Positions 31,178 through 38,594 of a DNA stretch of 64,000 bases are shown piece by piece; position 1 is the first letter of the stretch; each line of letters begins with the position of its first letter. A model generated the notes under the pieces. It saw only the letters and a program-made list of their open reading frames with translations. It had not been told where the DNA came from and did not search any database. This stretch comes from Candidatus Latescibacterota bacterium (GTDB taxonomy: Bacteria > Latescibacterota > UBA2968 > GCA-2709665): the NCBI GenBank assembly GCA_965203805.1, contig OZ241917.1, forward strand, positions 1,984,001 to 2,048,000, read 5' to 3'. Position numbers and translations under genes: made by a program.

Positions 31178-32038
31178 ATGTCCGAAAACGCAACCCGGCT
31201 CAAAGCCGTTCTGCTGGCGCTGGGCATACTTGTCGTCGGTGTGATTCTGGGCGCAACCACCCATCGCTGGCTTCCGCTTGTGGGCGATAAACAAGCGCAG
31301 AAACCCCCGGATCGCCCGCGCATTCCTCAATTGGGCGCTACGTCGGAACGCCTGTTGAAGCGATATTCCCGGCATCTGGATCTGACCGAAGCACAGCAGA
31401 CGGAGATCGATCAGATCCTGGACCATAGCCGGGAGCTGATGGTCGAGGTGCGGAAGAATATCGGTTCGAAGATCGAAACGGTGAGGCGGGACACGTGGGC
31501 CAGAATTCGCGACGTCCTCACACCGGGTCAGCAGGAGATGTTCGACGAGTTGACCAGCCCGGTTTCCCCGAATATTATCCTTCGGCAATTCAAGAGACGT
31601 CTCGGTCTCAACGAGGATCAGCAGGCGGAGATCTCGCGCATTCTCAAGACGAACTGGGCAGAAATGAGAAAAATGCGCCGGAAGATCCGGGAGAGATTGA
31701 AGAAAATTCATAAAGATTCGCGCACCGAACAACTCAACCTGCTCACACCTGAACAGAGGAAACGGGCCAAGGGCAGGTGGAACCCGGATCTATCGGGCGA
31801 GAAGCGTATGGAGATGGATCGCATCAGAAAAAAAAGCCGCGAGACAACGCGTCGGCTCTTTCAGGAACGCGACGAGCAGCTGGGTCTGGCGGTGCAGAAG
31901 ACGTGGCAGGAAATCAATACCCGCCTCGATTCGAGTCAGGTGGCGAAGTTCCATCGAATAACGGACGGAATCGAAAGGCGCATGAAGTGGGAGCGGCAGT
32001 TCCGGCGTAGACCGGGCGTCAGACCTTCCAGGTTCTGA
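31178..32038 (+). CDS. Membrane-anchored Spy/CpxP-like (LTxxQ) protein
   Basis: N-terminal TM; LDLTEAQQ, VLTPGQQ, LGLNEDQQ, LLTPEQ motifs. Confidence 0.75.
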   Translation: MSENATRLKAVLLALGILVVGVILGATTHRWLPLVGDKQAQKPPDRPRIPQLGATSERLLKRYSRHLDLTEAQQTEIDQILDHSRELMVEVRKNIGSKIETVRRDTWARIRDVLTPGQQEMFDELTSPVSPNIILRQFKRRLGLNEDQQAEISRILKTNWAEMRKMRRKIRERLKKIHKDSRTEQLNLLTPEQRKRAKGRWNPDLSGEKRMEMDRIRKKSRETTRRLFQERDEQLGLAVQKTWQEINTRLDSSQVAKFHRITDGIERRMKWERQFRRRPGVRPSRF

Positions 32039-32046
32039 AGGACGAG

Positions 32047-32075
32047 GGAACACTCTCAGTCCGTCATCTGTCTAT
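32047..32075 (+). promoter_or_regulatory. Second ECF-type promoter
   Basis: GGAAC-N18-GTCTAT upstream of the Spy-like gene at 32190. Confidence 0.55.
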
Positions 32076-32189
32076 AGCGTAGAGACCCTCGTAACGGACG
32101 GACTGCAGCCGGTCACAGCACGTTCCCGTCACCTGCGGGCAACCGCCCGCTGACACCTGACAGCCGGGGAAACCGAAAGGAGAATCATC

Positions 32190-32705
32190 ATGAAACGCGT
32201 CGCCATTCTTGCCGCCGTCGTCATTCCCATCCTTGTCATCGCCTGGGTGTTGCCCACAGATGCACATCGGGGCAAACGGGGCTGGAAAGGCCGAAAGGCG
32301 CCGATGGCAGCCCTGGAACTGTCAGCCGAACAGCAGGCCAGGTTGGAAAATCTCAAACTGGCGCGGGCCAAACAGATGGCTCAACTGCGTGCCGACCTGA
32401 AGGTGGCCAGACTGGACCTCCGGGCAGCGATGCGGAAAGACGAGCCCGACGCTGCAGCCGTCAAGACGAGTGTTGCAGCCGTAAACAGCGCTCGATCGCT
32501 GATTCTGGAGAGCCGCATCAACCACCGGCTCAAGGTCAACAGCGTCCTGACGCCGGAGCAGCGGACCAGGCTTCGTGAAATGCGAAGGGATCGACCCGGG
32601 AAGGGATGGGGCAAAATGTGGCGCAAGGGACGCTACCATAAGCGTTTTCGAGGAATGGGAGAAAAACGCCCCGACGGCGCCGACAGCCGCCCGTCTTCTA
32701 TCTGA
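32190..32705 (+). CDS. Spy/CpxP/ZraP-family periplasmic protein
   Basis: Signal peptide, LELSAEQQ...VLTPEQR; AAGGAG RBS. Confidence 0.88.
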   Translation: MKRVAILAAVVIPILVIAWVLPTDAHRGKRGWKGRKAPMAALELSAEQQARLENLKLARAKQMAQLRADLKVARLDLRAAMRKDEPDAAAVKTSVAAVNSARSLILESRINHRLKVNSVLTPEQRTRLREMRRDRPGKGWGKMWRKGRYHKRFRGMGEKRPDGADSRPSSI

Positions 32706-32736
32706 CCGGATCTGCCGGGATAGAAAGGTATTGGAG

Positions 32737-33789
32737 ATGTTGTTTCGCAGATTTGCCTTCACGTCCGTGGTTTTGTCGTTCACGCTCATCGGCTGCGGAA
32801 ACAGAATCCCCGTCGAGTCCCCCACCGGGGACGACTCCAATGAAAGCGCATCCCAGGCCTCAAAGGCGTCAACGGACGAGATCAGCGCCAAACTTGAAAA
32901 CGGAAGTTCCGGCAATTCCGGGTTCCGCCACCACGGAGGACGGAGATTATCCATTGACGCGCTTAGGGATTCCCTGGGCCTGAGCGACGAACAGGTTTCA
33001 GCACTCGAGGAGTTGAATGAATCCTACGCCGCGGACGTCAAGGCAGCGATCGAAAGTGCCAAAGCATCCGGCGACCGCACGGGGCTTCGGGCGAAGTTGC
33101 GGGAACTGAGAGAGGAACATGAGGACGATTTCAACGATGTCCTGACGGACGAGCAACAGATCCGTCTCGAGGAGATCAAGGCCAATGCGGCCGCCCGAAG
33201 GAAGGACCGGGGGTGGGAAAATTACATCGCCGCACTCACTGACTCCCTGGGCCTGAGCGACGAACAGGTCGCGGACCTCAATGAATTGCACGAAGACTAT
33301 CAGGCCGACGTCAATGCCGCCAGGGAAAACGCCGGGAAGTCGGGCGACCGTTCAGAGTTCCGCACCCGGCTGAAGGAATTGAGACTGGCATTCGAAGACA
33401 ACTTCAACGACGTCCTGACGGACGAGCAACAGATCCGTCTCGAGGAGATCAAGGCCAATGCGGCCGCCCGAAGGAAGGACCGGGGGTGGGAAAATTACAT
33501 CGCCACGCTCACTGACTCCCTGGGCCTGAGCGACGAACAGGTCGCGGACCTCGATGAATTGCACGAAGACTATCAGGCTGACGTCAAGGCCGCGATCGAC
33601 AGCGCTCAGGAATCGGGTGACCGTTCGGATCTCAGGGAGAAGCTGCAAGAACTGAGAAAGGATTTCGGGGAGGACTTCAACGCCGTCCTTACCGATGAAC
33701 AGAAGGAGAAGCTGGACGAGATGAAATCCGAGGGACGGAAACGTAAGGGCAAGGGACGCCGACACCGCCACAAAGGCAGAAAAGGTTAA
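32737..33789 (+). CDS. Lipoprotein with three tandem 91-aa Spy/CpxP-like repeats
   Basis: Lipobox LIGC; DSLGLSDEQV...VLTDEQ three times. Confidence 0.85.
   Translation: MLFRRFAFTSVVLSFTLIGCGNRIPVESPTGDDSNESASQASKASTDEISAKLENGSSGNSGFRHHGGRRLSIDALRDSLGLSDEQVSALEELNESYAADVKAAIESAKASGDRTGLRAKLRELREEHEDDFNDVLTDEQQIRLEEIKANAAARRKDRGWENYIAALTDSLGLSDEQVADLNELHEDYQADVNAARENAGKSGDRSEFRTRLKELRLAFEDNFNDVLTDEQQIRLEEIKANAAARRKDRGWENYIATLTDSLGLSDEQVADLDELHEDYQADVKAAIDSAQESGDRSDLREKLQELRKDFGEDFNAVLTDEQKEKLDEMKSEGRKRKGKGRRHRHKGRKG
32968..33720 (+). repeat. Intragenic 273-bp tandem repeat (~3 units)
   Basis: GA(T/C)TCCCTGGGCCTGAGCGACGAACAGGT starts at 32968, 33241 and 33514. Confidence 0.92.
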
Positions 33790-33803
33790 AGTTCCGATTC
33801 GCC

Positions 33804-33832
33804 TTGACAACTCGGGTGCGGGTGACTAACTT
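33804..33832 (+). promoter_or_regulatory. Sigma70 promoter of the valS leader
   Basis: TTGACA-N17-TAACTT. Confidence 0.75.
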
Positions 33833-33877
33833 TCTATGAATTCAAACCCTGAGATCTCTATCATTCAGACGAAACCC

Positions 33878-34003
33878 ATGATCACCATCGGCCACAGACC
33901 CCAGAATCTCACGTTGCGGGTCAACGTAAATGTCGGCGTACGCCCGGTAGTAAATGTCAATTCGGGCGATAGTCAGGGGACTCCGTGGCGGTGTTTGAAT
34001 TAG
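33878..34003 (+). CDS. valS attenuator leader peptide (41 aa, Val/Asn-rich)
   Basis: MITIGHRPQNLTLRVNVNVGVRPVVNVNSGDSQGTPWRCLN*; 7 Val in 13 codons. In-frame ATG also at 33836; start uncertain and RBS weak. Confidence 0.75.
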   Translation: MITIGHRPQNLTLRVNVNVGVRPVVNVNSGDSQGTPWRCLN

Positions 34004-34025
34004 CAGCTTGGACAAGAACACCAGC

Positions 34026-34063
34026 AACCCGCCATCGAGTCCACTCGGTGGCGGGTTTTTTTT
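34026..34063 (+). terminator. valS attenuator terminator
   Basis: AACCCGCCATCGAG-TCCA-CTCGGTGGCGGGTT with an 8-T run at 34056-34063. Confidence 0.9.
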
Positions 34064-34487
34064 ATATGAATATCGAGGATTCCTGATGTCGCATCGACCA
34101 CACACATCGCGTTGCCTTTCCAGGCTCCCGGGCTATTCTCCGTACAGCGAACGGTCGGCAGCCACTATTGTCGAAAAACGTTCAGGCGCGATGCTGCGGG
34201 GGATTACGGTCGGCGACCAGTGGGTCGCCGGATTTCAGGTTCCCGGACGGGAAGGAAGCGCTCGATTGTGTGACGGAATTACTACCGAAGTTAGCCTCCG
34301 GGAGGACAGACAGGCCGATATCCTGGCCGCCGCAGATGTACAGCAGGATTGGCCGCGGCAGTTATGATTTGCCGGATGTGGGCCGTTACTTCGAGGTCCT
34401 CGAACTCACCGTCTTCGACGATTGGAGATTCCAGGGTACGGAATTTCCGGATTCGCATAATGGACAATACCTCCCGGGAGAATCAAA

Positions 34488-36932
34488 ATGGCATTATCCA
34501 AACAGTATCGTCCACAGGAAACAGAGCCTCGCCTTCAGGCGCGCTGGCGGCTCGCGAGTATCTACAAATTTGAGAGACAGGCCACGGGCCCTGTGTACGC
34601 AATCGACACCCCGCCTGCGACCGTGTCCGGAAAACTCCACATGGGCCACGTCTATTCCTACAGTCATGCTGATTTCATGGCGCGCTTCTGGAGAATGAAC
34701 GGCCAACGGGTGTTTTATCCTATGGGATATGACGACAACGGTTTACCCACCGAACGGTTGGTGGAAAAACTGTTGGGAATCCGCGCAAACGAAATTGGCC
34801 GCGAGGAATTCATAAATCAATGCTTGCGCGTCAGCTTGGCCACAGAAAGAGAATACGAGAGTCTCTGGATTCGGCTGGGGCTGTCGGTCGACTGGTCGCA
34901 TACCTACCGCACTATCGGTCGCGCCGCCCGGCGAATTGCGCAGAAATCATTCATCGACCTTTTCGAAAAAGGGCTCGCGTATCGTAAGAAAGCGCCTGCG
35001 GTCTGGTGCCCGGAATGCCAGACCGCCATCGCCCAAGCCGAACTGGACGAAGCGGATCGGATGGGCGAATTGGTCACAATAGACTTCCGCCTCGCGGACG
35101 GAAATCCAATACCGATCGCCACAACCCGGCCGGAGCTTCTAGCGGCGTGCGTAGCAATCTTCGTCCATCCCAGTGACGACCGCTACAGTTCGTTTATCGG
35201 CCACGACGTTACCGTACCACTTTATGGACGCGAGGTTTCGATATTGCAGGACAAGGGGGCGGATCCCGAAATGGGTACAGGGGCTGTGATGTGCTGCACC
35301 TTCGGCGACGCCGCTGACGTGGCATGGTGGCATTCTCATCACCTGCCGCTTGTCTCCGTTATCGACGGAAACGGCCGGTTGAACCGTGGATCCGGCGATC
35401 TCAACGGCCTTTCCGTACCAGAAGCCAGGCGACATATCGTAAGGACGCTTGATGATCGCGGTCTGATCCGGGATCGACGGCCCTTTCCACAATCAGTTCG
35501 GATCCACGAACGCTGTGACACGCCAGTGGAATTCATCGTCGCCCCTCAGTGGTTCATTAACATCCTCGACTTCAAGGACCGCTGGCTTAGCGCAGGCGAA
35601 GAAATATCGTGGCATCCCCCGCATTTGAAAACCCGCTACATTGAATGGATCGAAAACCTGCATTGGGACTGGTGCATCTCGCGACAGCGCAACTTTGGCG
35701 TACCGTTTCCGATCTGGTACTGCAAAGCTTGCGGAGACGTCAAAGTTGCCCCCGAACAGAAACTGCCCATAGACCCCCTCCAATCGTCCCCAGATGTGAA
35801 TTGCAATTGCGGCGCCGACGATTGGGTCGCGGAAACAGACGTTATGGATACCTGGGCTACGTCGTCGCTCAGTCCTCAAATCGCCGCTCGGTGGCAATCG
35901 AATAATGAGCTTTATGGTAACGTCTACCCAATGTCCATGCGCCCGCAGTCACATGAGATCATCCGGACGTGGGCCTTCTACACGATTGTCAGATCCCACT
36001 ATCATTGCGGTCGAGTACCTTGGAATGACGTATGCGTATCCGGTTGGGGCCTGGCTCCTGACGGTGCGGGGAAAATCAGCAAGAGCAGAGGCGGTGGACC
36101 GACGGCACCCATGGCCGCAATCAGGAAGTACTCGGCAGACGCAGTTCGATATTGGGCGGCCGGAACGGGTTTTGGAAAAGACACAGTCATTAGCGAAGAA
36201 AGAATCCAGGCCGGCGGCAAACTGATCAACAAGCTCTGGAACGTCGCCCGCTTCAGCGAACGCTTCCTTCAGGGATATCGCGATTCAATTGAACCATCAA
36301 CCCTGACCCCAGCGGACCGCTGGATTCTGGCGCGGGCACAACGCGTAATCAAACAGACAACTTGCTCTTTCCGAAACTACCAGTACGCGCAGGCAAGGCA
36401 TGCAGTCGAAATCTTCTTTTGGCGAGACGTGGCTGACAACTACCTGGAAATGGCCAAACAACGCCTTTATGCAGACGCCGAGGGCGCAGCAAGCGGCGCG
36501 AAATATGCACTATGTCACGTGCTTCGAACCTGCGTTCACCTCTTTGCGCCGTTTCTGCCCCACGTAACCGACGAGATCTACGCCGGGCTATTCGCAAAGC
36601 GTGGAGAATCCATCCACACCTCAACCTGGCCCTCGGTGGATGTGCGACTGGTGGACGATGTCGCGGAGGCGCACGGAAACCGACTGGTTGAGATTGCCAC
36701 TGCCGTTCGCAGATTCAAGAGCGAATCCAACCTCCCGCTCAGTGCGCCCGTGCATCTGTTACAGCTTTCAGTCAAGGATCATGCGCTCTCAATGTCGCTG
36801 AAGGAGGCTGAAGCCGATATGACCAGTATTACACGCGCTGACAAGCTTGACGTCCGGCTGAATCACCCTGTCGACGCCGGCCTTCGAGGCGTGCTCGAGA
36901 GCGATGCTGTATACGCGGCGGTTGACGTCTAA
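34488..36932 (+). CDS. valS: Valine--tRNA ligase, archaeal-type (short, no C-terminal coiled coil)
   Basis: IDTPPATVSGKLHMGH, YDDNGLPTER, ATTRPELL, GTGAVMCCTFGD, DWCISRQR, DVMDTWATSS, KISKS; 814 aa. Confidence 0.95.
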   Translation: MALSKQYRPQETEPRLQARWRLASIYKFERQATGPVYAIDTPPATVSGKLHMGHVYSYSHADFMARFWRMNGQRVFYPMGYDDNGLPTERLVEKLLGIRANEIGREEFINQCLRVSLATEREYESLWIRLGLSVDWSHTYRTIGRAARRIAQKSFIDLFEKGLAYRKKAPAVWCPECQTAIAQAELDEADRMGELVTIDFRLADGNPIPIATTRPELLAACVAIFVHPSDDRYSSFIGHDVTVPLYGREVSILQDKGADPEMGTGAVMCCTFGDAADVAWWHSHHLPLVSVIDGNGRLNRGSGDLNGLSVPEARRHIVRTLDDRGLIRDRRPFPQSVRIHERCDTPVEFIVAPQWFINILDFKDRWLSAGEEISWHPPHLKTRYIEWIENLHWDWCISRQRNFGVPFPIWYCKACGDVKVAPEQKLPIDPLQSSPDVNCNCGADDWVAETDVMDTWATSSLSPQIAARWQSNNELYGNVYPMSMRPQSHEIIRTWAFYTIVRSHYHCGRVPWNDVCVSGWGLAPDGAGKISKSRGGGPTAPMAAIRKYSADAVRYWAAGTGFGKDTVISEERIQAGGKLINKLWNVARFSERFLQGYRDSIEPSTLTPADRWILARAQRVIKQTTCSFRNYQYAQARHAVEIFFWRDVADNYLEMAKQRLYADAEGAASGAKYALCHVLRTCVHLFAPFLPHVTDEIYAGLFAKRGESIHTSTWPSVDVRLVDDVAEAHGNRLVEIATAVRRFKSESNLPLSAPVHLLQLSVKDHALSMSLKEAEADMTSITRADKLDVRLNHPVDAGLRGVLESDAVYAAVDV

Positions 36933-37038
36933 CGGGATCCTCAGTCGTCATCTATGGTGTGTGCCGATTTGATCTAAAAACCGTTTAAGTATCAGACCCT
37001 TTGGTGATTTTTACAGAGTGAGCCTGGAGACCTGACCA

Positions 37039-37179
37039 ATGACGACGCGTTGTTCCATCTACCACATCAATACCTCACTGAAGTCACCCGGAACAGCCGT
37101 GTGCCTGGACGTCAATCCCTACAACGATAATAACAACCATAACCCTATCCAACGGCGGGCAGGCCCAAATGGCAGCTAA
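37039..37179 (+). CDS. aspS attenuator leader peptide (46 aa, Asn/Asp-rich)
   Basis: GGAGA RBS 8 nt upstream; MTTRCSIYHINTSLKSPGTAVCLDVNPYNDNNNHNPIQRRAGPNGS*. Confidence 0.8.
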   Translation: MTTRCSIYHINTSLKSPGTAVCLDVNPYNDNNNHNPIQRRAGPNGS

Positions 37180-37196
37180 ATGTTCACCATGAAGAG

Positions 37197-37232
37197 AACC
37201 CGCCGTGGGTCGCACACCAACGGCGGGTTTTT
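37197..37232 (+). terminator. aspS attenuator terminator
   Basis: AACCCGCCGTGGGT-CGCAC-ACCAACGGCGGGTT then TTT (5-T run in total). Confidence 0.85.
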
Positions 37233-37274: not shown

Positions 37275-38594
37275 ATGACCTACGTTTCAATACCCCGGCT
37301 CAGTGATCATGTGGGGCAGATCGTCACACTCTGTGGATGGATACACACCCTTCGAGACCAGAAACAAATGCAATTCATCGTTCTCCGCAATCCCACCGGA
37401 ATGGTCCAGGCCGCCGTTGAGAAACAATCGAATCCCGGCCTGGCAAGAATGGTTTCCACCCTCACACGGGAGTCCGCTGTTCGCCTCACCGGCCGTGTCG
37501 TGCCAAACCCGAACGTCCGCCTTGGCGGCATCGAAATCCACCTGGAGGGGCTCCGCATCGAAAACAGGGCGGAATCGCCTCTGCCGATCGAACCATTTGG
37601 CGAAGTGAGACCTGGATTGGAACGGAGGCTTGACTGGCGGCATCTGGACCTGCGACGCCCAGCGAACCATCTGCTTTTCCAGGTACAGACCACCATCGAA
37701 GCCGCAATGCGAAACTTCTGGCGACGCGAGGGATTCATCGAAATTCATACCCCGAAGATTATGGGCAGCGCAAGTGAATCCGGTGCCGAACTCTTTGAAC
37801 TCCCGTATTTCGACGCCACGGCCTACCTCGCTCAGTCGCCCCAGTTCTACAAGCAGATGGCCATGGCAGCAGGCTTCGAACGAGTCTTTGAAATTGGCCC
37901 CGTTTTCAGGGCGAACCCCTCGTTCACTTCGCGTCACGACACCGAGTTCACCAGCGTAGACGTTGAACTCGCATGGATCGAATCGCACGATGACCTCATG
38001 CACTTTGAAGAACTTTGGCTCTGCCATACTCTGCTCGCCGTGCAGGAATCACACGGCGAAGCAATTTTCAAGCGTTTTGGCACTGAAGTTTGCGTTCCTG
38101 ACCGTCCCTTTCCACGCATCACCATGGAAGACGCTGTCGCACGGCTCGCGGAACTGGGGTACACACCCCCACCACAAAAACAGGGCGACCTTTGCCCACA
38201 GGGAGAGCGCCTGCTTGGCGAATACATCCGGGAAACTTACGGCCACGAGTTCGTTTTCCTGACCGATTATCCTGTTTCCGTCCGCCCTTTTTATCACATG
38301 CGGTACCCTGATAACCCGATCGTCACCAAGAGCTTCGACCTTTTATGGAAAGGCCTGGAACTGACCACAGGCGCGCAACGCGAACACCGACCAGCCGTAC
38401 TGACCGACCAGGCGAAAGAAAAGCGGCTCAAGTTAGAACCCCTACGGTTCTACCTGGACTTTTTCAAATACGGGTGTCCACCACACGGCGGCTTCGGTTT
38501 CGGCCTGACCCGAATGCTCATGATTCTACTTGGATGCAAGAACGTACGGGAAGTCACGTTTGTCTATCGCGGCCCAAAGAGAATCTACCCGTAG
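37275..38594 (+). CDS. aspS: Aspartate--tRNA(Asp/Asn) ligase, archaeal-type, probably non-discriminating
   Basis: 439 aa with no GAD insertion; GWIHTLRD, RLDWRHLDLR, SESGAELF, YLAQSPQFYKQ, FRAN.S.T.RHDTEF, GAQREH, PPHGGFGFGL.R. Confidence 0.92.
   Translation: MTYVSIPRLSDHVGQIVTLCGWIHTLRDQKQMQFIVLRNPTGMVQAAVEKQSNPGLARMVSTLTRESAVRLTGRVVPNPNVRLGGIEIHLEGLRIENRAESPLPIEPFGEVRPGLERRLDWRHLDLRRPANHLLFQVQTTIEAAMRNFWRREGFIEIHTPKIMGSASESGAELFELPYFDATAYLAQSPQFYKQMAMAAGFERVFEIGPVFRANPSFTSRHDTEFTSVDVELAWIESHDDLMHFEELWLCHTLLAVQESHGEAIFKRFGTEVCVPDRPFPRITMEDAVARLAELGYTPPPQKQGDLCPQGERLLGEYIRETYGHEFVFLTDYPVSVRPFYHMRYPDNPIVTKSFDLLWKGLELTTGAQREHRPAVLTDQAKEKRLKLEPLRFYLDFFKYGCPPHGGFGFGLTRMLMILLGCKNVREVTFVYRGPKRIYP

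What the first reader, a model, noticed from the sequence alone, without database searches (positions are those of the whole stretch)
33804..34063. Valine leader-peptide attenuator controlling valyl-tRNA synthetase
Seen: a promoter, then a leader with VNVNVGVRPVVNV (7 Val in 13 codons, 33920-33958, four of them GTA). GTGGCGGTGTT (33985-33995) can pair with terminator arm AACCCGCCAT (34026-34035), and an 8-T terminator follows. Stalling on Val would free the antiterminator; a ribosome reaching the stop at 34001 would cover it. Established: aaRS genes are T-box regulated in Firmicutes, and E. coli pheST uses a leader peptide. I know of no described valS leader-peptide attenuator, but could not search.
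Basis: partly seen in the sequence, partly recalled or inferred. Interest (0 to 1): 0.88.

Follow-up and report, generated by a model that had tools for sequence, protein, structure and literature searches.

The report
Valine leader-peptide attenuator before spare valS
A short valine-rich reading frame followed by a switchable transcription stop signal sits ahead of a spare valyl-tRNA synthetase gene, and a matching asparagine/aspartate-rich one sits ahead of the neighbouring spare aspartyl-tRNA synthetase gene, so the cell probably turns on these back-up enzymes when the matching charged tRNAs run short.

Summary
Window 33804-34063 holds a promoter, a 41-codon ORF (conserved ATG 33878, stop 34001), a strong terminator (34026-34063) and, inside the ORF's 3' end, a near-copy of the terminator's 3' arm that can pair with its 5' arm (antiterminator).

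The unit is conserved in 8 of 53 genomes of the order. The frame stays open in all 8 (column shuffle P=0.006). There is no excess of third-position change. Three invariant Val codons all use GTA, the rarest Val codon.

The valS is a second, archaeal-type copy. Its relatives in another family also carry Val-rich short ORFs plus terminators.

A sibling was found at 37039-37232, before a second aspS (Asp-tRNA(Asn) ligase). It is an Asn/Asp-rich leader of the same design, seen at 23 of 25 examined aspS2 loci, and its terminator and antiterminator pairings covary.

- The start codon is 33878, not 33836.
- A methyltransferase remnant of about 420 nt separates terminator and valS.
- In a sister genus the leader survives without valS.

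There are no expression data. This is a new member of a known kind (pheST-type attenuation). No valS or aspS example turned up in four literature searches.

The parts
33804..33832 (+). Promoter of the leader transcript: -35 TTGACA (33804-33809), 17-nt spacer, -10 TAACTT (33827-33832). Expected start near 33838-33840.
   Evidence: Sequence. CCTTGAC and a TATCTT/TATATT-type -10 are conserved in 8 of 8 genomes. Not called by the consensus scan.
33878..34003 (+). Leader ORF, 41 codons plus TAG: MITIGHRPQNLTLRVNVNVGVRPVVNVNSGDSQGTPWRCLN.
   Evidence: ATG and TAG are conserved and the frame is open in 8 of 8 genomes, with 41 or 43 codons and one in-frame 6-nt indel. Column shuffle gives 124 of 20000. 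Pairwise differences by codon position are 305/267/223, and 94 synonymous against 482 non-synonymous. No obvious Shine-Dalgarno sequence.
33920..33958 (+). Valine codon cluster, 7 Val in 13 codons. The invariant control codons are Val17 (33926-33928), Val21 (33938-33940) and Val24 (33947-33949), all GTA.
   Evidence: GTA makes up 13% of Val codons in 1855 long ORFs of the genome, and there is one tRNA-Val(UAC) gene.
33876..33902 (+). Segment 1: candidate 5' strand of the anti-antiterminator. It covers the start codon to codon 9 and includes the invariant GCCAC at 33891-33895.
   Evidence: RNAalifold consensus helix with 33977-33998 and the MFE structure. Only 1 covarying pair, so support is weak.
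33977..33998 (+). Segment 2, inside the 3' end of the ORF. ACTCCGTGGCGG (33980-33991) is a near-copy of the terminator's 3' arm. It pairs either with segment 1 or with segment 3.
   Evidence: The antiterminator helix is paired in 88.4% of 112 cells, against 30-57% in slid controls, with 0 compensatory pairs.
34026..34063 (+). Intrinsic terminator: 5' arm 34026-34039 (segment 3; the antiterminator uses 34029-34042), loop TCCA, 3' arm 34044-34057 (segment 4), T8 at 34056-34063.
   Evidence: 14 pairs, 9 of them G-C; -26 kcal/mol. Conserved in 8 of 8 genomes.
34075..34370 (+). GAGGA (34075-34079) and ATG (34086) of an internally deleted class I SAM methyltransferase gene. This remnant is the spacer between the attenuator and valS2.
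   Evidence: tblastn with the intact genus-g2 methyltransferase matches N-terminal and C-terminal pieces only, in 6 of 6 genus-g1 genomes. The intact gene follows the terminator in G015 and G019.
34488..36932 (+). valS2: second, archaeal-type valine-tRNA ligase (814 aa), the first intact gene downstream.
   Evidence: NF009687 scores 1017 bits against a cut-off of 738. The canonical valS is at G000:C1:326802-329111, matching NF004349.
37026..37179 (+). Sibling leader: GGAG at 37026-37029, then an ORF at 37039-37179 (46 codons). The Asn/Asp(/His) run NPYNDNNNHN is at 37114-37143. Segment 2, CCAACGGCGGG, is at 37149-37159.
   Evidence: It has 46 codons in 6 of 6 genomes, a conserved GGAG, and column shuffle P = 0.009.
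37197..37232 (+). Terminator of the sibling attenuator. Its 3' arm CCAACGGCGGG (37217-37227) is an exact copy of segment 2. T5 follows.
37275..38594 (+). aspS2: second, archaeal-type non-discriminating aspartate-tRNA(Asn) ligase.
   Evidence: NF003483 scores 474.6 bits against a cut-off of 353. The genome also holds a bacterial aspS and an asnS and gatB.

Best explanation
This is a ribosome-mediated (leader-peptide) transcription attenuator that senses charged tRNA-Val. It controls read-through into a spare, archaeal-type valS2 and, through a second attenuator of the same design, into a spare aspS2.

Proposed mechanism (inferred, not measured):
1. Transcription starts near 33839, and a ribosome translates the 41-codon leader from ATG 33878.
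2. When Val-tRNA is plentiful, the ribosome runs through segment 2 (33977-33991) to the stop at 34001 and covers segment 2. The 14-bp terminator (34026-34057 plus T8) then forms and transcription ends.
3. When Val-tRNA is short, above all the UAC isoacceptor that reads the rare GTA codons, the ribosome stalls at codons 17-27 (33926-33958). Its footprint ends before segment 2.
4. Segment 2 then pairs with the terminator's 5' arm as soon as that arm is made, and the polymerase reads on through the methyltransferase remnant into valS2.
5. Without any translation, segment 2 would be held by segment 1 (33876-33902) and termination would prevail.

Shown here: the anatomy, its conservation, the open frame, the codon choice, the alternative pairings, and the parallel elements. 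Inferred: translation of the leader, stalling at Val codons, coupling of ribosome and polymerase, and the response to valine.
For: 1. Anatomy. In transcripts cut before the 3' arm, the minimum-energy fold contains the segment 2:3 helix in 6 of 8 genomes (partial in G010).

2. Conservation. The element occurs in 8 of 53 genomes of the order.

3. Open frame without protein-like selection.
- The frame is open in 8 of 8 genomes, and 124 of 20000 column shuffles give that.
- The only indel inside the ORF is 6 nt, whereas the flanks carry indels of 1-3 nt.
- Third codon positions are the least variable, at 305/267/223 differences.

4. Control codons.
- There are 6-7 Val in 41-43 codons in all 8 genomes.
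- Val17, Val21 and Val24 are invariant and all GTA.
- GTA makes up 13% of Val codons, so three of three has P = 0.002.

5. Segment 2 as a copy of the 3' arm. Such a copy occurs at 28 of 1898 terminators, and both attenuators of this locus are among them, starting 46 and 48 nt before the stem.

6. Other families. valS2 occurs in 12 of 168 genomes of the phylum.
- Five genomes of family f4 carry short ORFs plus one or two terminators directly before valS2.
- Examples are ...LVPSVVVQVRTAVCVV* (9 Val in the 41-aa ORF, 5 of them GTA) and MGNRQSVNVEVLPVRAAGTVSPVVGTAMLRPRRRL (7 of 35).
- These are not detectably homologous to the f1 leader beyond the terminator; the best blastn E is 0.007.

7. The sibling.
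- In a screen of 1899 predicted terminators of this genome, the top candidate is an Asn-rich ORF before aspS2, with 6 Asn in 10 codons (binomial 1e-7 per window).
- It has a conserved GGAG and 46 codons in 6 of 6 genomes.
- An Asn/Asp-rich ORF such as NNNDDNNPIRRRAGP plus a terminator stands before 23 of 25 examined aspS2 loci in three families.
- Terminator: 98.5% of 198 cells paired, 3 compensatory pairs, 0 of 500 shuffles as high.
- Antiterminator: 97.5% paired, 1 compensatory pair, 2 of 500 shuffles as high.
- One segment 3 column changes together with both of its partners.

8. No Rfam family matches.
Against: - No Shine-Dalgarno sequence precedes ATG 33878 (ACGAAACCCATG), although neighbouring genes and the sibling leader have one.
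- Within family f1 the antiterminator is supported by conservation only, with 0 compensatory pairs. Its duplex energy is not exceptional for this G+C-rich genome, ranking 77th of 1899, and controls are equally strong on average.
- The Val codons lie downstream of segment 1. A single stalled ribosome would therefore not mask segment 1 as it does in trp. The 1:2 helix itself has only 1 covarying pair.
- Val density is modest outside G000: 3 invariant plus 3-4 variable Val codons. Asp and Asn are equally enriched in this leader, at 7-10 of 41-43.
- 424 nt separate the terminator from valS2, and a promoter there is not excluded.
- In genus g2 the leader is intact although valS2 is lost. Only a 78-aa remnant survives in G019.
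- In family f4 not every unit is Val-rich: G107 unit 1 has 2 of 32, and G106 unit 2 has 3 of 29.
- In G017 a DDE transposase replaces the leader.
Confidence: 0.72

Rival explanations
1. An RNA-only attenuator: a riboswitch, or a leader that binds tRNA or a protein. The alternative terminator and antiterminator are real, but the sensor is the folded 5' region (the long-range helix 33876-33902 with 33977-33998 acting as a P1-like stem stabilised by a ligand, tRNA or ValRS itself). On this reading the open frame is incidental.
For: - Conservation is at the nucleotide level, with no excess of third-position change. An example is the invariant CGTACGCCCNGTA.
- The consensus fold closes the region with a long-range helix, and the fold is better than shuffles, z = -3.26.
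- There is no Shine-Dalgarno sequence before the ATG.
- The downstream gene in genus g2 is a SAM-dependent methyltransferase.
Against: - The frame, its ATG and its TAG are kept in 8 of 8 genomes (P = 0.006), with only an in-frame indel inside the ORF.
- The f4 leaders have different sequence but are again Val-rich ORFs.
- The sibling has a conserved GGAG, a fixed 46-codon frame, and a run of cognate Asn/Asp codons at 23 of 25 loci.
- There is no Rfam match, T-box included, at E up to 1 on the window and up to 10 on 8 loci.
- Only 1 covarying pair supports the proposed sensor fold.
Confidence: 0.12
2. An independent small transcription unit (a 41-aa micro-protein gene or a roughly 225-nt small RNA) with its own promoter and efficient terminator, and no regulatory link to valS2. 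On this reading valS2 is transcribed from a start inside the 424-nt spacer.
For: - The unit has its own promoter and a very strong terminator.
- It stays intact in genus g2 without valS2.
- The spacer before valS2 is long.
- Similar promoter, short transcript and look-alike terminator units occur elsewhere in related genomes.
Against: - The peptide does not evolve like a protein: 94 synonymous against 482 non-synonymous codon differences.
- In genus g2 and in family f4 the next gene's Shine-Dalgarno sequence starts about 15-25 nt after the T-run, which leaves no room for a promoter.
- No positionally conserved sigma-70-like site is found in the 6 genus-g1 spacers. There is one site in G000 only and one in G010 only.
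- This reading does not explain the copy of the terminator arm inside the ORF, or the cognate-codon parallel with aspS2.
Confidence: 0.1
3. A multivalent attenuator. The leader senses both Val and Asp/Asn charging, because it heads an operon with both valS2 and aspS2.
For: Asp plus Asn make up 7-10 of 41-43 codons in all 8 f1 leaders. Positions 26 and 31 are always D or N. The f4 leaders, whose valS2 has no aspS2 downstream, lack D and N.
Against: G013 and G011 keep 7 D/N although no aspS2 follows valS2 there. D/N interchange is common in any sequence, and the region is A+T-richer than the genome. aspS2 has its own dedicated Asn/Asp leader.
Confidence: 0.15

Closest known systems
Escherichia coli pheST attenuator with the pheM leader peptide (recalled; cited as the gamma-proteobacterial example in passages read from PMC1262725)
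   Same: A leader ORF rich in codons for the amino acid of the downstream aminoacyl-tRNA synthetase. It is followed by mutually exclusive antiterminator and terminator hairpins, and it controls an aaRS gene rather than a biosynthetic operon.
   Different: Here the amino acid is valine. The leader is longer (41 codons against 14, recalled). The control codons are spread out and lie downstream of segment 1. There is no obvious Shine-Dalgarno sequence. The regulated gene is a spare, archaeal-type copy, and the organisms are uncultured Latescibacterota.
Predicted classical attenuators before leuS and trpS2 in Streptomyces (PMC1262725, passages read) and the His leader before hisS paralogues in bacilli (PMC2965389, passages read)
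   Same: These are computationally predicted leader-peptide attenuators before aaRS genes outside Proteobacteria. The trpS2 and hisS cases, like this one, concern extra copies of an aaRS.
   Different: The amino acids and the phyla differ. Here two adjacent aaRS genes each carry their own cognate leader, and relatives carry tandem units.
ilvGMEDA and ilvBN leader peptides of enterobacteria (recalled)
   Same: Valine codons serve as control codons in a ribosome-mediated attenuator.
   Different: Those leaders control branched-chain amino-acid biosynthesis, not a synthetase, and have denser Val runs. No sequence relation was tested.
T-box riboswitch (Rfam RF00230)
   Same: It regulates aaRS genes by choosing between terminator and antiterminator in response to tRNA charging.
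   Different: A T-box senses uncharged tRNA directly through RNA-RNA contacts and needs no ORF. The Rfam library that includes the T-box model gave no match here.

Membership tests
Ribosome-mediated (leader-peptide) transcription attenuator | A short ORF with start and stop in the 5' leader, kept open among relatives. | tested here: met
   The ORF is open, with conserved ATG and TAG, in 8 of 8 genomes. All-open arises in 124 of 20000 column shuffles.
Ribosome-mediated (leader-peptide) transcription attenuator | Clustered control codons cognate to the regulated gene's amino acid, conserved while the rest of the peptide drifts. | tested here: met
   There are 6-7 Val of 41-43 codons in 8 of 8 genomes, and 3 invariant Val codons, all the rare GTA. 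Non-synonymous differences far outnumber synonymous ones. The density is lower than in the textbook leaders.
Ribosome-mediated (leader-peptide) transcription attenuator | An intrinsic terminator between the leader ORF and the structural gene. | tested here: met
   A 14-bp stem plus T8, conserved in 8 of 8 genomes. In G000, however, 424 nt holding a gene remnant follow before valS2.
Ribosome-mediated (leader-peptide) transcription attenuator | An antiterminator pairing that excludes the terminator, supported by comparison. | tested here: inconclusive
   For this leader, 88.4% of 112 cells are paired against 30-57% in slid controls, but there are 0 compensatory pairs. For the sibling leader the feature is met: 97.5% paired, 1 compensatory pair, 2 of 500 shuffles as high.
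Ribosome-mediated (leader-peptide) transcription attenuator | Geometry: a ribosome at the stop codon masks the antiterminator's 5' strand, and a ribosome on the control codons does not. | tested here: met
   Segment 2 ends 9 nt before the stop. The last invariant Val codon ends 27 nt before segment 2. The footprint size is taken from general knowledge.
Ribosome-mediated (leader-peptide) transcription attenuator | A 1:2 hairpin (anti-antiterminator and pause) whose 5' strand is masked by the stalled ribosome. | tested here: inconclusive
   A long-range helix is predicted, but it has 1 covarying pair and segment 1 lies upstream of the Val codons.
Ribosome-mediated (leader-peptide) transcription attenuator | A ribosome-binding site for the leader. 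| tested here: not met
   No GGAG-like motif lies within 15 nt upstream of ATG 33878 in any of the 8 genomes. The sibling leader has a conserved GGAG.
Ribosome-mediated (leader-peptide) transcription attenuator | The leader is translated, and read-through rises when the cognate charged tRNA is limiting. | not testable with these tools
   No RNA run holds the locus, and the organisms are uncultured MAGs.
T-box riboswitch | A match to the T-box covariance model (Stem I with specifier loop, T-box sequence in the antiterminator bulge). | tested here: not met
   There were 0 Rfam matches at E up to 1 on window 32000-36000. On 8 related loci at E up to 10 there were only two chance-level matches, mir-392 at 24.9 bits and ar14 at 22.6 bits.

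The most novel reading that the evidence does not exclude
A lineage-wide 'back-up charging module'. Horizontally acquired archaeal-type aaRS duplicates in Latescibacterota are each wired to their own cognate leader-peptide attenuator, so each spare enzyme is made only when its own tRNA is under-charged.

The Asn/Asp leader before a non-discriminating AspRS would then act as a switch. When Asn-tRNA runs short, charging would move from direct Asn-tRNA synthesis (AsnRS) to the indirect tRNA-dependent route (ND-AspRS plus GatCAB).

The variable Asn/Asp/His/Tyr (NAY) run might additionally report the decoding state of the GUN-anticodon tRNAs that carry queuosine.
Probability: 0.3. Interest if true: 0.72.

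Novelty: new member of a known kind. Interest (0 to 1): 0.6.

Why it matters
Leader-peptide attenuation is textbook for biosynthetic operons. For aaRS genes it is known for pheST and only predicted for a few others (leuS, trpS2, hisS paralogues). Firmicutes use T-boxes instead.

This locus adds valS and a non-discriminating aspS to that list, in an uncultured FCB-group phylum. It shows two cognate leaders in series in one operon, and tandem units in relatives.

It gives a testable rationale for why bacteria keep duplicate, horizontally acquired synthetases: they may be inducible spares triggered by under-charging of their own tRNA. It also offers a possible regulatory switch between the direct and indirect Asn-tRNA pathways.

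For annotation, these short ORFs should be labelled leader peptides rather than hypothetical proteins.

Tried and rejected
**Searches that found nothing**
- Rfam: nothing on the window and only chance-level hits on 8 loci. There are no tRNA genes in the window.
- Two exact-pattern scans of metagenome contigs found nothing. The genome-contig scan returned only the 7 known relatives.
- No RNA holder was listed for the locus (4 runs listed, none on record as RNA).
- Four literature searches found no valS or aspS leader-peptide attenuator. Supplements of the papers could not be seen.

**Steps that failed or were wrong**
- The genome search does not take DNA alignments, so single sequences were used instead.
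- A first test for 'copy of the 3' arm' that used only the last 11 stem bases missed both elements. It was replaced.
- RNAduplex energy of the upstream region against the 5' arm does not discriminate in this G+C-rich genome: test and control means are -15.8 and -16.0.
- My queries 'window:34087-34367' were one base out of frame (the true ATG is at 34086). Their results on that ORF are void. The remnant was identified instead by tblastn with the intact methyltransferase.

**Readings considered and dropped**
- The 33836 ATG as start codon was rejected.
- Matches in G016, G018 and G014 were only look-alike terminators of unrelated units.
- I looked for homology between the f1 leader and the f4 units and did not find it. 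The best E was 0.007, over the terminator only.
- A functional micro-protein was rejected on the substitution pattern.
- The genome-wide screen found no convincing leader before amino-acid biosynthesis operons in G000. The middle of the output was cut.
- NCBIfam gives the genus-g2 methyltransferase no specific name.
Full report
**1. What is there**

The sequence shows a promoter: TTGACA at 33804-33809, a 17-nt spacer, and TAACTT at 33827-33832. A leader region follows. Then comes a very strong intrinsic terminator, with a stem at 34026-34057 (14 pairs, loop TCCA) followed by eight T at 34056-34063.

The ORF 33836-34003 reads ...RVNVNVGVRPVVNVN..., with 7 Val in 13 codons at 33920-33958, four of them GTA.

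The transcript 33838-34063 folds better than its shuffles: -78.5 kcal/mol, z = -3.26, and 0 of 200 shuffles fold as well. No Rfam family matches at E up to 1, and there is no tRNA gene in the window.

The flanking genes are an LTXXQ-repeat protein gene (32575-33789) upstream and valS (34488-36932) downstream. The valS matches NF009687 at 1017 bits against a cut-off of 738. aspS follows at 37275-38594 and matches NF003483, aspartate-tRNA(Asn) ligase.

**2. Who has it**

- The genome is a MAG of Candidatus Latescibacterota, according to the record titles of the relatives.
- The element is conserved at 69-84% nucleotide identity in 7 other genomes. That makes 8 of 22 genomes of the family and 8 of 53 of the order.
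- Two further blastn hits (G016, G018) are only look-alike terminators of unrelated small units.
- Two pattern scans of metagenome contigs found nothing. No RNA run holds the locus.

**3. The ORF**

In the alignment of the 8 copies, the promoter, an ATG at 33878, a TAG at 34001 and the terminator are all conserved.

Its frame is interrupted in G013 and G010. I therefore take 33878 as the start.

From 33878 the frame is open in 8 of 8 genomes, with 41 codons in six and 43 in genus g2 through one in-frame 6-nt insertion. The other two frames carry 1-5 stops in every genome. Only 124 of 20000 column shuffles leave all eight frames open.

The peptide does not evolve like a protein. Pairwise differences by codon position are 305, 267 and 223, so the third position is the least variable. 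Non-synonymous codon differences (482) far exceed synonymous ones (94). An ORF kept open while its product drifts is what a leader peptide should look like.

The invariant codons are His6, Val17, Val21, Arg22, Val24, Ser29, Trp37 and Arg38. Pro23 is invariant as an amino acid (CCG in G000, CCT in the others). All three Val codons are GTA. GTA is the rarest Val codon of this genome, at 13% of Val codons in 1855 long ORFs. It is read by a single tRNA-Val(UAC) gene. Three of three by chance would be 0.002. Each of the 8 leaders has 6-7 Val.

**4. The switch**

ACTCCGTGGCGG (33980-33991) lies inside the ORF, 9 nt before the stop. It is a near-copy of the terminator's 3' arm, ACTCGGTGGCGG. Together with GG upstream it can pair with CCGCCATCGAGTCC (34029-34042) in 13 of 14 positions.

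- In transcripts cut before the 3' arm, this helix is in the minimum-energy fold in 6 of 8 genomes, partial in G010.
- Across the 8 genomes 88.4% of 112 cells pair, against 30-57% when the partner is slid. There is no compensatory change, so here the support is conservation only.
- Such a copy of the 3' arm (11-mer, at most 1 mismatch, 5-110 nt upstream) occurs at 28 of 1898 predicted terminators of the genome, and at 25 of 1898 in a control window.
- Duplex energy alone is not distinctive in this 59% G+C genome. It ranks 77th of 1899.
- RNAalifold also pairs the ORF's first nine codons (33876-33902, with invariant GCCAC) with 33977-33998. This is a candidate 1:2 helix with only one covarying pair.

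**5. What it controls**

The valS here is a second copy.

- G000 also has a canonical bacterial valS (NF004349) at another locus.
- Relatives without the element (G001, G002, G016) have only the canonical type, 31-33% identical to valS2.

In the six genus-g1 genomes the element lies between the LTXXQ gene and valS2. The 268-427 nt in between are an internally deleted class I SAM methyltransferase. Only the N-terminal and C-terminal pieces match the intact gene. No positionally conserved sigma-70-like site is seen there; one site occurs in G000 only and one in G010 only.

In genus g2 (G015, G019) the intact methyltransferase starts about 20 nt after the T-run, with AAGGAG and ATG. There valS2 is lost, with a 78-aa remnant in G019.

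So the leader is tied to the operon rather than strictly to valS2. This counts somewhat against a pure 'valS regulator'.

**6. Independent support from other families**

valS2 occurs in 12 of 168 genomes of the phylum.

- In five genomes of family f4 (53-56% identical ValRS), the gene is preceded directly by one or two units of short ORF plus terminator. Its Shine-Dalgarno sequence starts a few bases after the last T-run.
- Genus g25 has ...LVPSVVVQVRTAVCVV*, with 9 Val in the listed 41-aa ORF of G133. Five of these are GTA, read.
- G107 has MGNRQSVNVEVLPVRAAGTVSPVVGTAMLRPRRRL, with 7 of 35.
- Not every unit is Val-rich. G107 unit 1 has 2 of 32 and G106 unit 2 has 3 of 29.
- The second units of G133 and G118 start with GTG and were read by eye.
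- These leaders show no blastn similarity to the f1 leader beyond the terminator; the best E is 0.007. The recurrence of Val codons is therefore not simply inherited sequence.
- In G017 a DDE transposase gene replaces the leader.

**7. The sibling**

I screened all 1899 hairpin-plus-T-run sites of G000 for short ORFs rich in one amino acid and followed by a gene.

- The top hit lies in this same window, between valS2 and aspS2.
- It is the ORF 37039-37179, MTTRCSIYHINTSLKSPGTAVCLDVNPYNDNNNHNPIQRRAGPNGS. It has 6 Asn in 10 codons; Asn makes up 2.9% of residues, so the binomial is 1e-7 per window.
- GGAG lies 10 nt before its ATG.
- CCAACGGCGGG (37149-37159), inside the ORF, is an exact copy of the terminator's 3' arm (37217-37227).
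- The terminator is at 37197-37232, and the aspS2 ATG is at 37275.

Conservation of the sibling:

- The ORF has 46 codons in 6 of 6 family-f1 genomes that have it (G000, G007, G008, G010, G017, G019), with a conserved GGAG. The column shuffle gives P = 0.009.
- aspS2 occurs in 26 of 168 genomes of the phylum.
- Of 25 loci examined, 23 carry an upstream ORF with at least 5 Asn+Asp in the run. The 17 loci counted have at least 6 in 11 codons, typically ...NNNDDNNPIRRRAGPA*, followed by a terminator.
- G091 has none. G016 has a homologous stretch without an in-frame stop.
- Family f2 has no valS2, so this leader travels with aspS2.

Covariation on 23 sequences (22 distinct):

- The terminator's outer 9 pairs are paired in 98.5% of 198 cells, with 3 compensatory pairs. 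None of 500 shuffles is as high.
- The antiterminator's 9 pairs are paired in 97.5% of cells, with 1 compensatory pair. Two of 500 shuffles are as high, and slid controls give 34-66%.
- One segment 3 column (C or U) changes together with both of its partners, in segment 2 and in segment 4.

G000 also has a bacterial aspS, an asnS and gatB. aspS2 is therefore a spare that could feed the indirect Asn-tRNA route.

**8. Reading**

Two adjacent spare synthetase genes are each preceded by a short conserved ORF rich in their own amino acid. In each, a copy of the terminator's 3' arm sits inside the ORF's end, starting 46 or 48 nt before the stem. Each has a stop codon shortly after that copy, and then a terminator.

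This is the architecture of ribosome-mediated attenuation. For the sibling the alternative pairings covary. For the valine leader the case rests on conservation, the open frame, the rare-codon choice, the f4 parallels and the analogy.

I put the leader-peptide attenuator at 0.72. Weak points:
- There is no Shine-Dalgarno sequence.
- Segment 1 lies upstream of the Val codons.
- Val density is modest.
- The spacer before valS2 is long.
- The leader persists without valS2 in genus g2.
- There are no expression data.

**9. Known or new**

Passages read in PMC1262725 name the following:
- pheST in gamma-proteobacteria;
- predicted classical attenuators before leuS and trpS2 in Streptomyces.

Passages read in PMC2965389 describe a predicted His leader before hisS paralogues in bacilli. 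They also state that leader peptides were then known only from Proteobacteria and Actinobacteria.

My four searches turned up no valS or aspS leader-peptide attenuator and nothing of the kind for Latescibacterota. Paper supplements could not be seen.

The kind is therefore known. These are new members, with the added interest that they regulate horizontally acquired spare synthetases and stand in series.

Noticed in passing
window 37026-37232: A second leader-peptide attenuator lies between valS2 and aspS2. It is an Asn/Asp(/His)-rich 46-codon ORF that holds an exact copy of its terminator's 3' arm. A similar leader stands before 23 of 25 examined aspS2 loci of the phylum.
   Followed up: yes
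window 37114-37143 and relatives: The variable run of the aspS2 leader is made almost only of NAY codons (Asn, Asp, His, Tyr). His replaces Asn or Asp at several positions in G008, G007 and G019. These four amino acids share GUN-anticodon tRNAs (queuosine family, recalled). The meaning is unknown.
   Followed up: no
window 34086-34370; L015:7479-8327(-), L016:2065-2901(-): An internally deleted class I SAM methyltransferase remnant lies between the attenuator and valS2 in 6 of 6 genus-g1 genomes. It is intact in genus g2. The remnant is well conserved among the g1 genomes, which is unexpected for a dead gene.
   Followed up: partly
L072/L073 (G008), L071/L074 (G011): The valS2 match is split into two pieces at about residue 395-417 in G008 and G011. 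This is either a frameshift (pseudogene) or an assembly error.
   Followed up: no
L065:436-1416: In G017 a DDE_Tnp_4 transposase gene ends 85 nt before valS2, where other genomes have the Val leader. The Asn leader before aspS2 is intact there and starts 13 nt after the valS2 stop.
   Followed up: partly
L066:1050-1500, L069:1040-1500: In family f4 two leader-plus-terminator units stand in tandem before valS2. G139 has lost the second leader but kept both terminators back to back.
   Followed up: partly
L009:1270-1535 (G016), L037:1275-1535 (G018): Unrelated small units (promoter, about 200 nt, terminator) end in terminators with almost the same stem sequence (CCCGCCATCGA...). One of them encodes a small hydrophobic peptide. 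This terminator sequence seems to recur in these genomes.
   Followed up: no
window 32575-33789 and 31178-32038: There are two LTXXQ-motif (Spy/CpxP-like) protein genes. The larger has three near-identical internal repeats of about 90 residues, and the copy number varies among relatives (multiple tblastn pieces).
   Followed up: no
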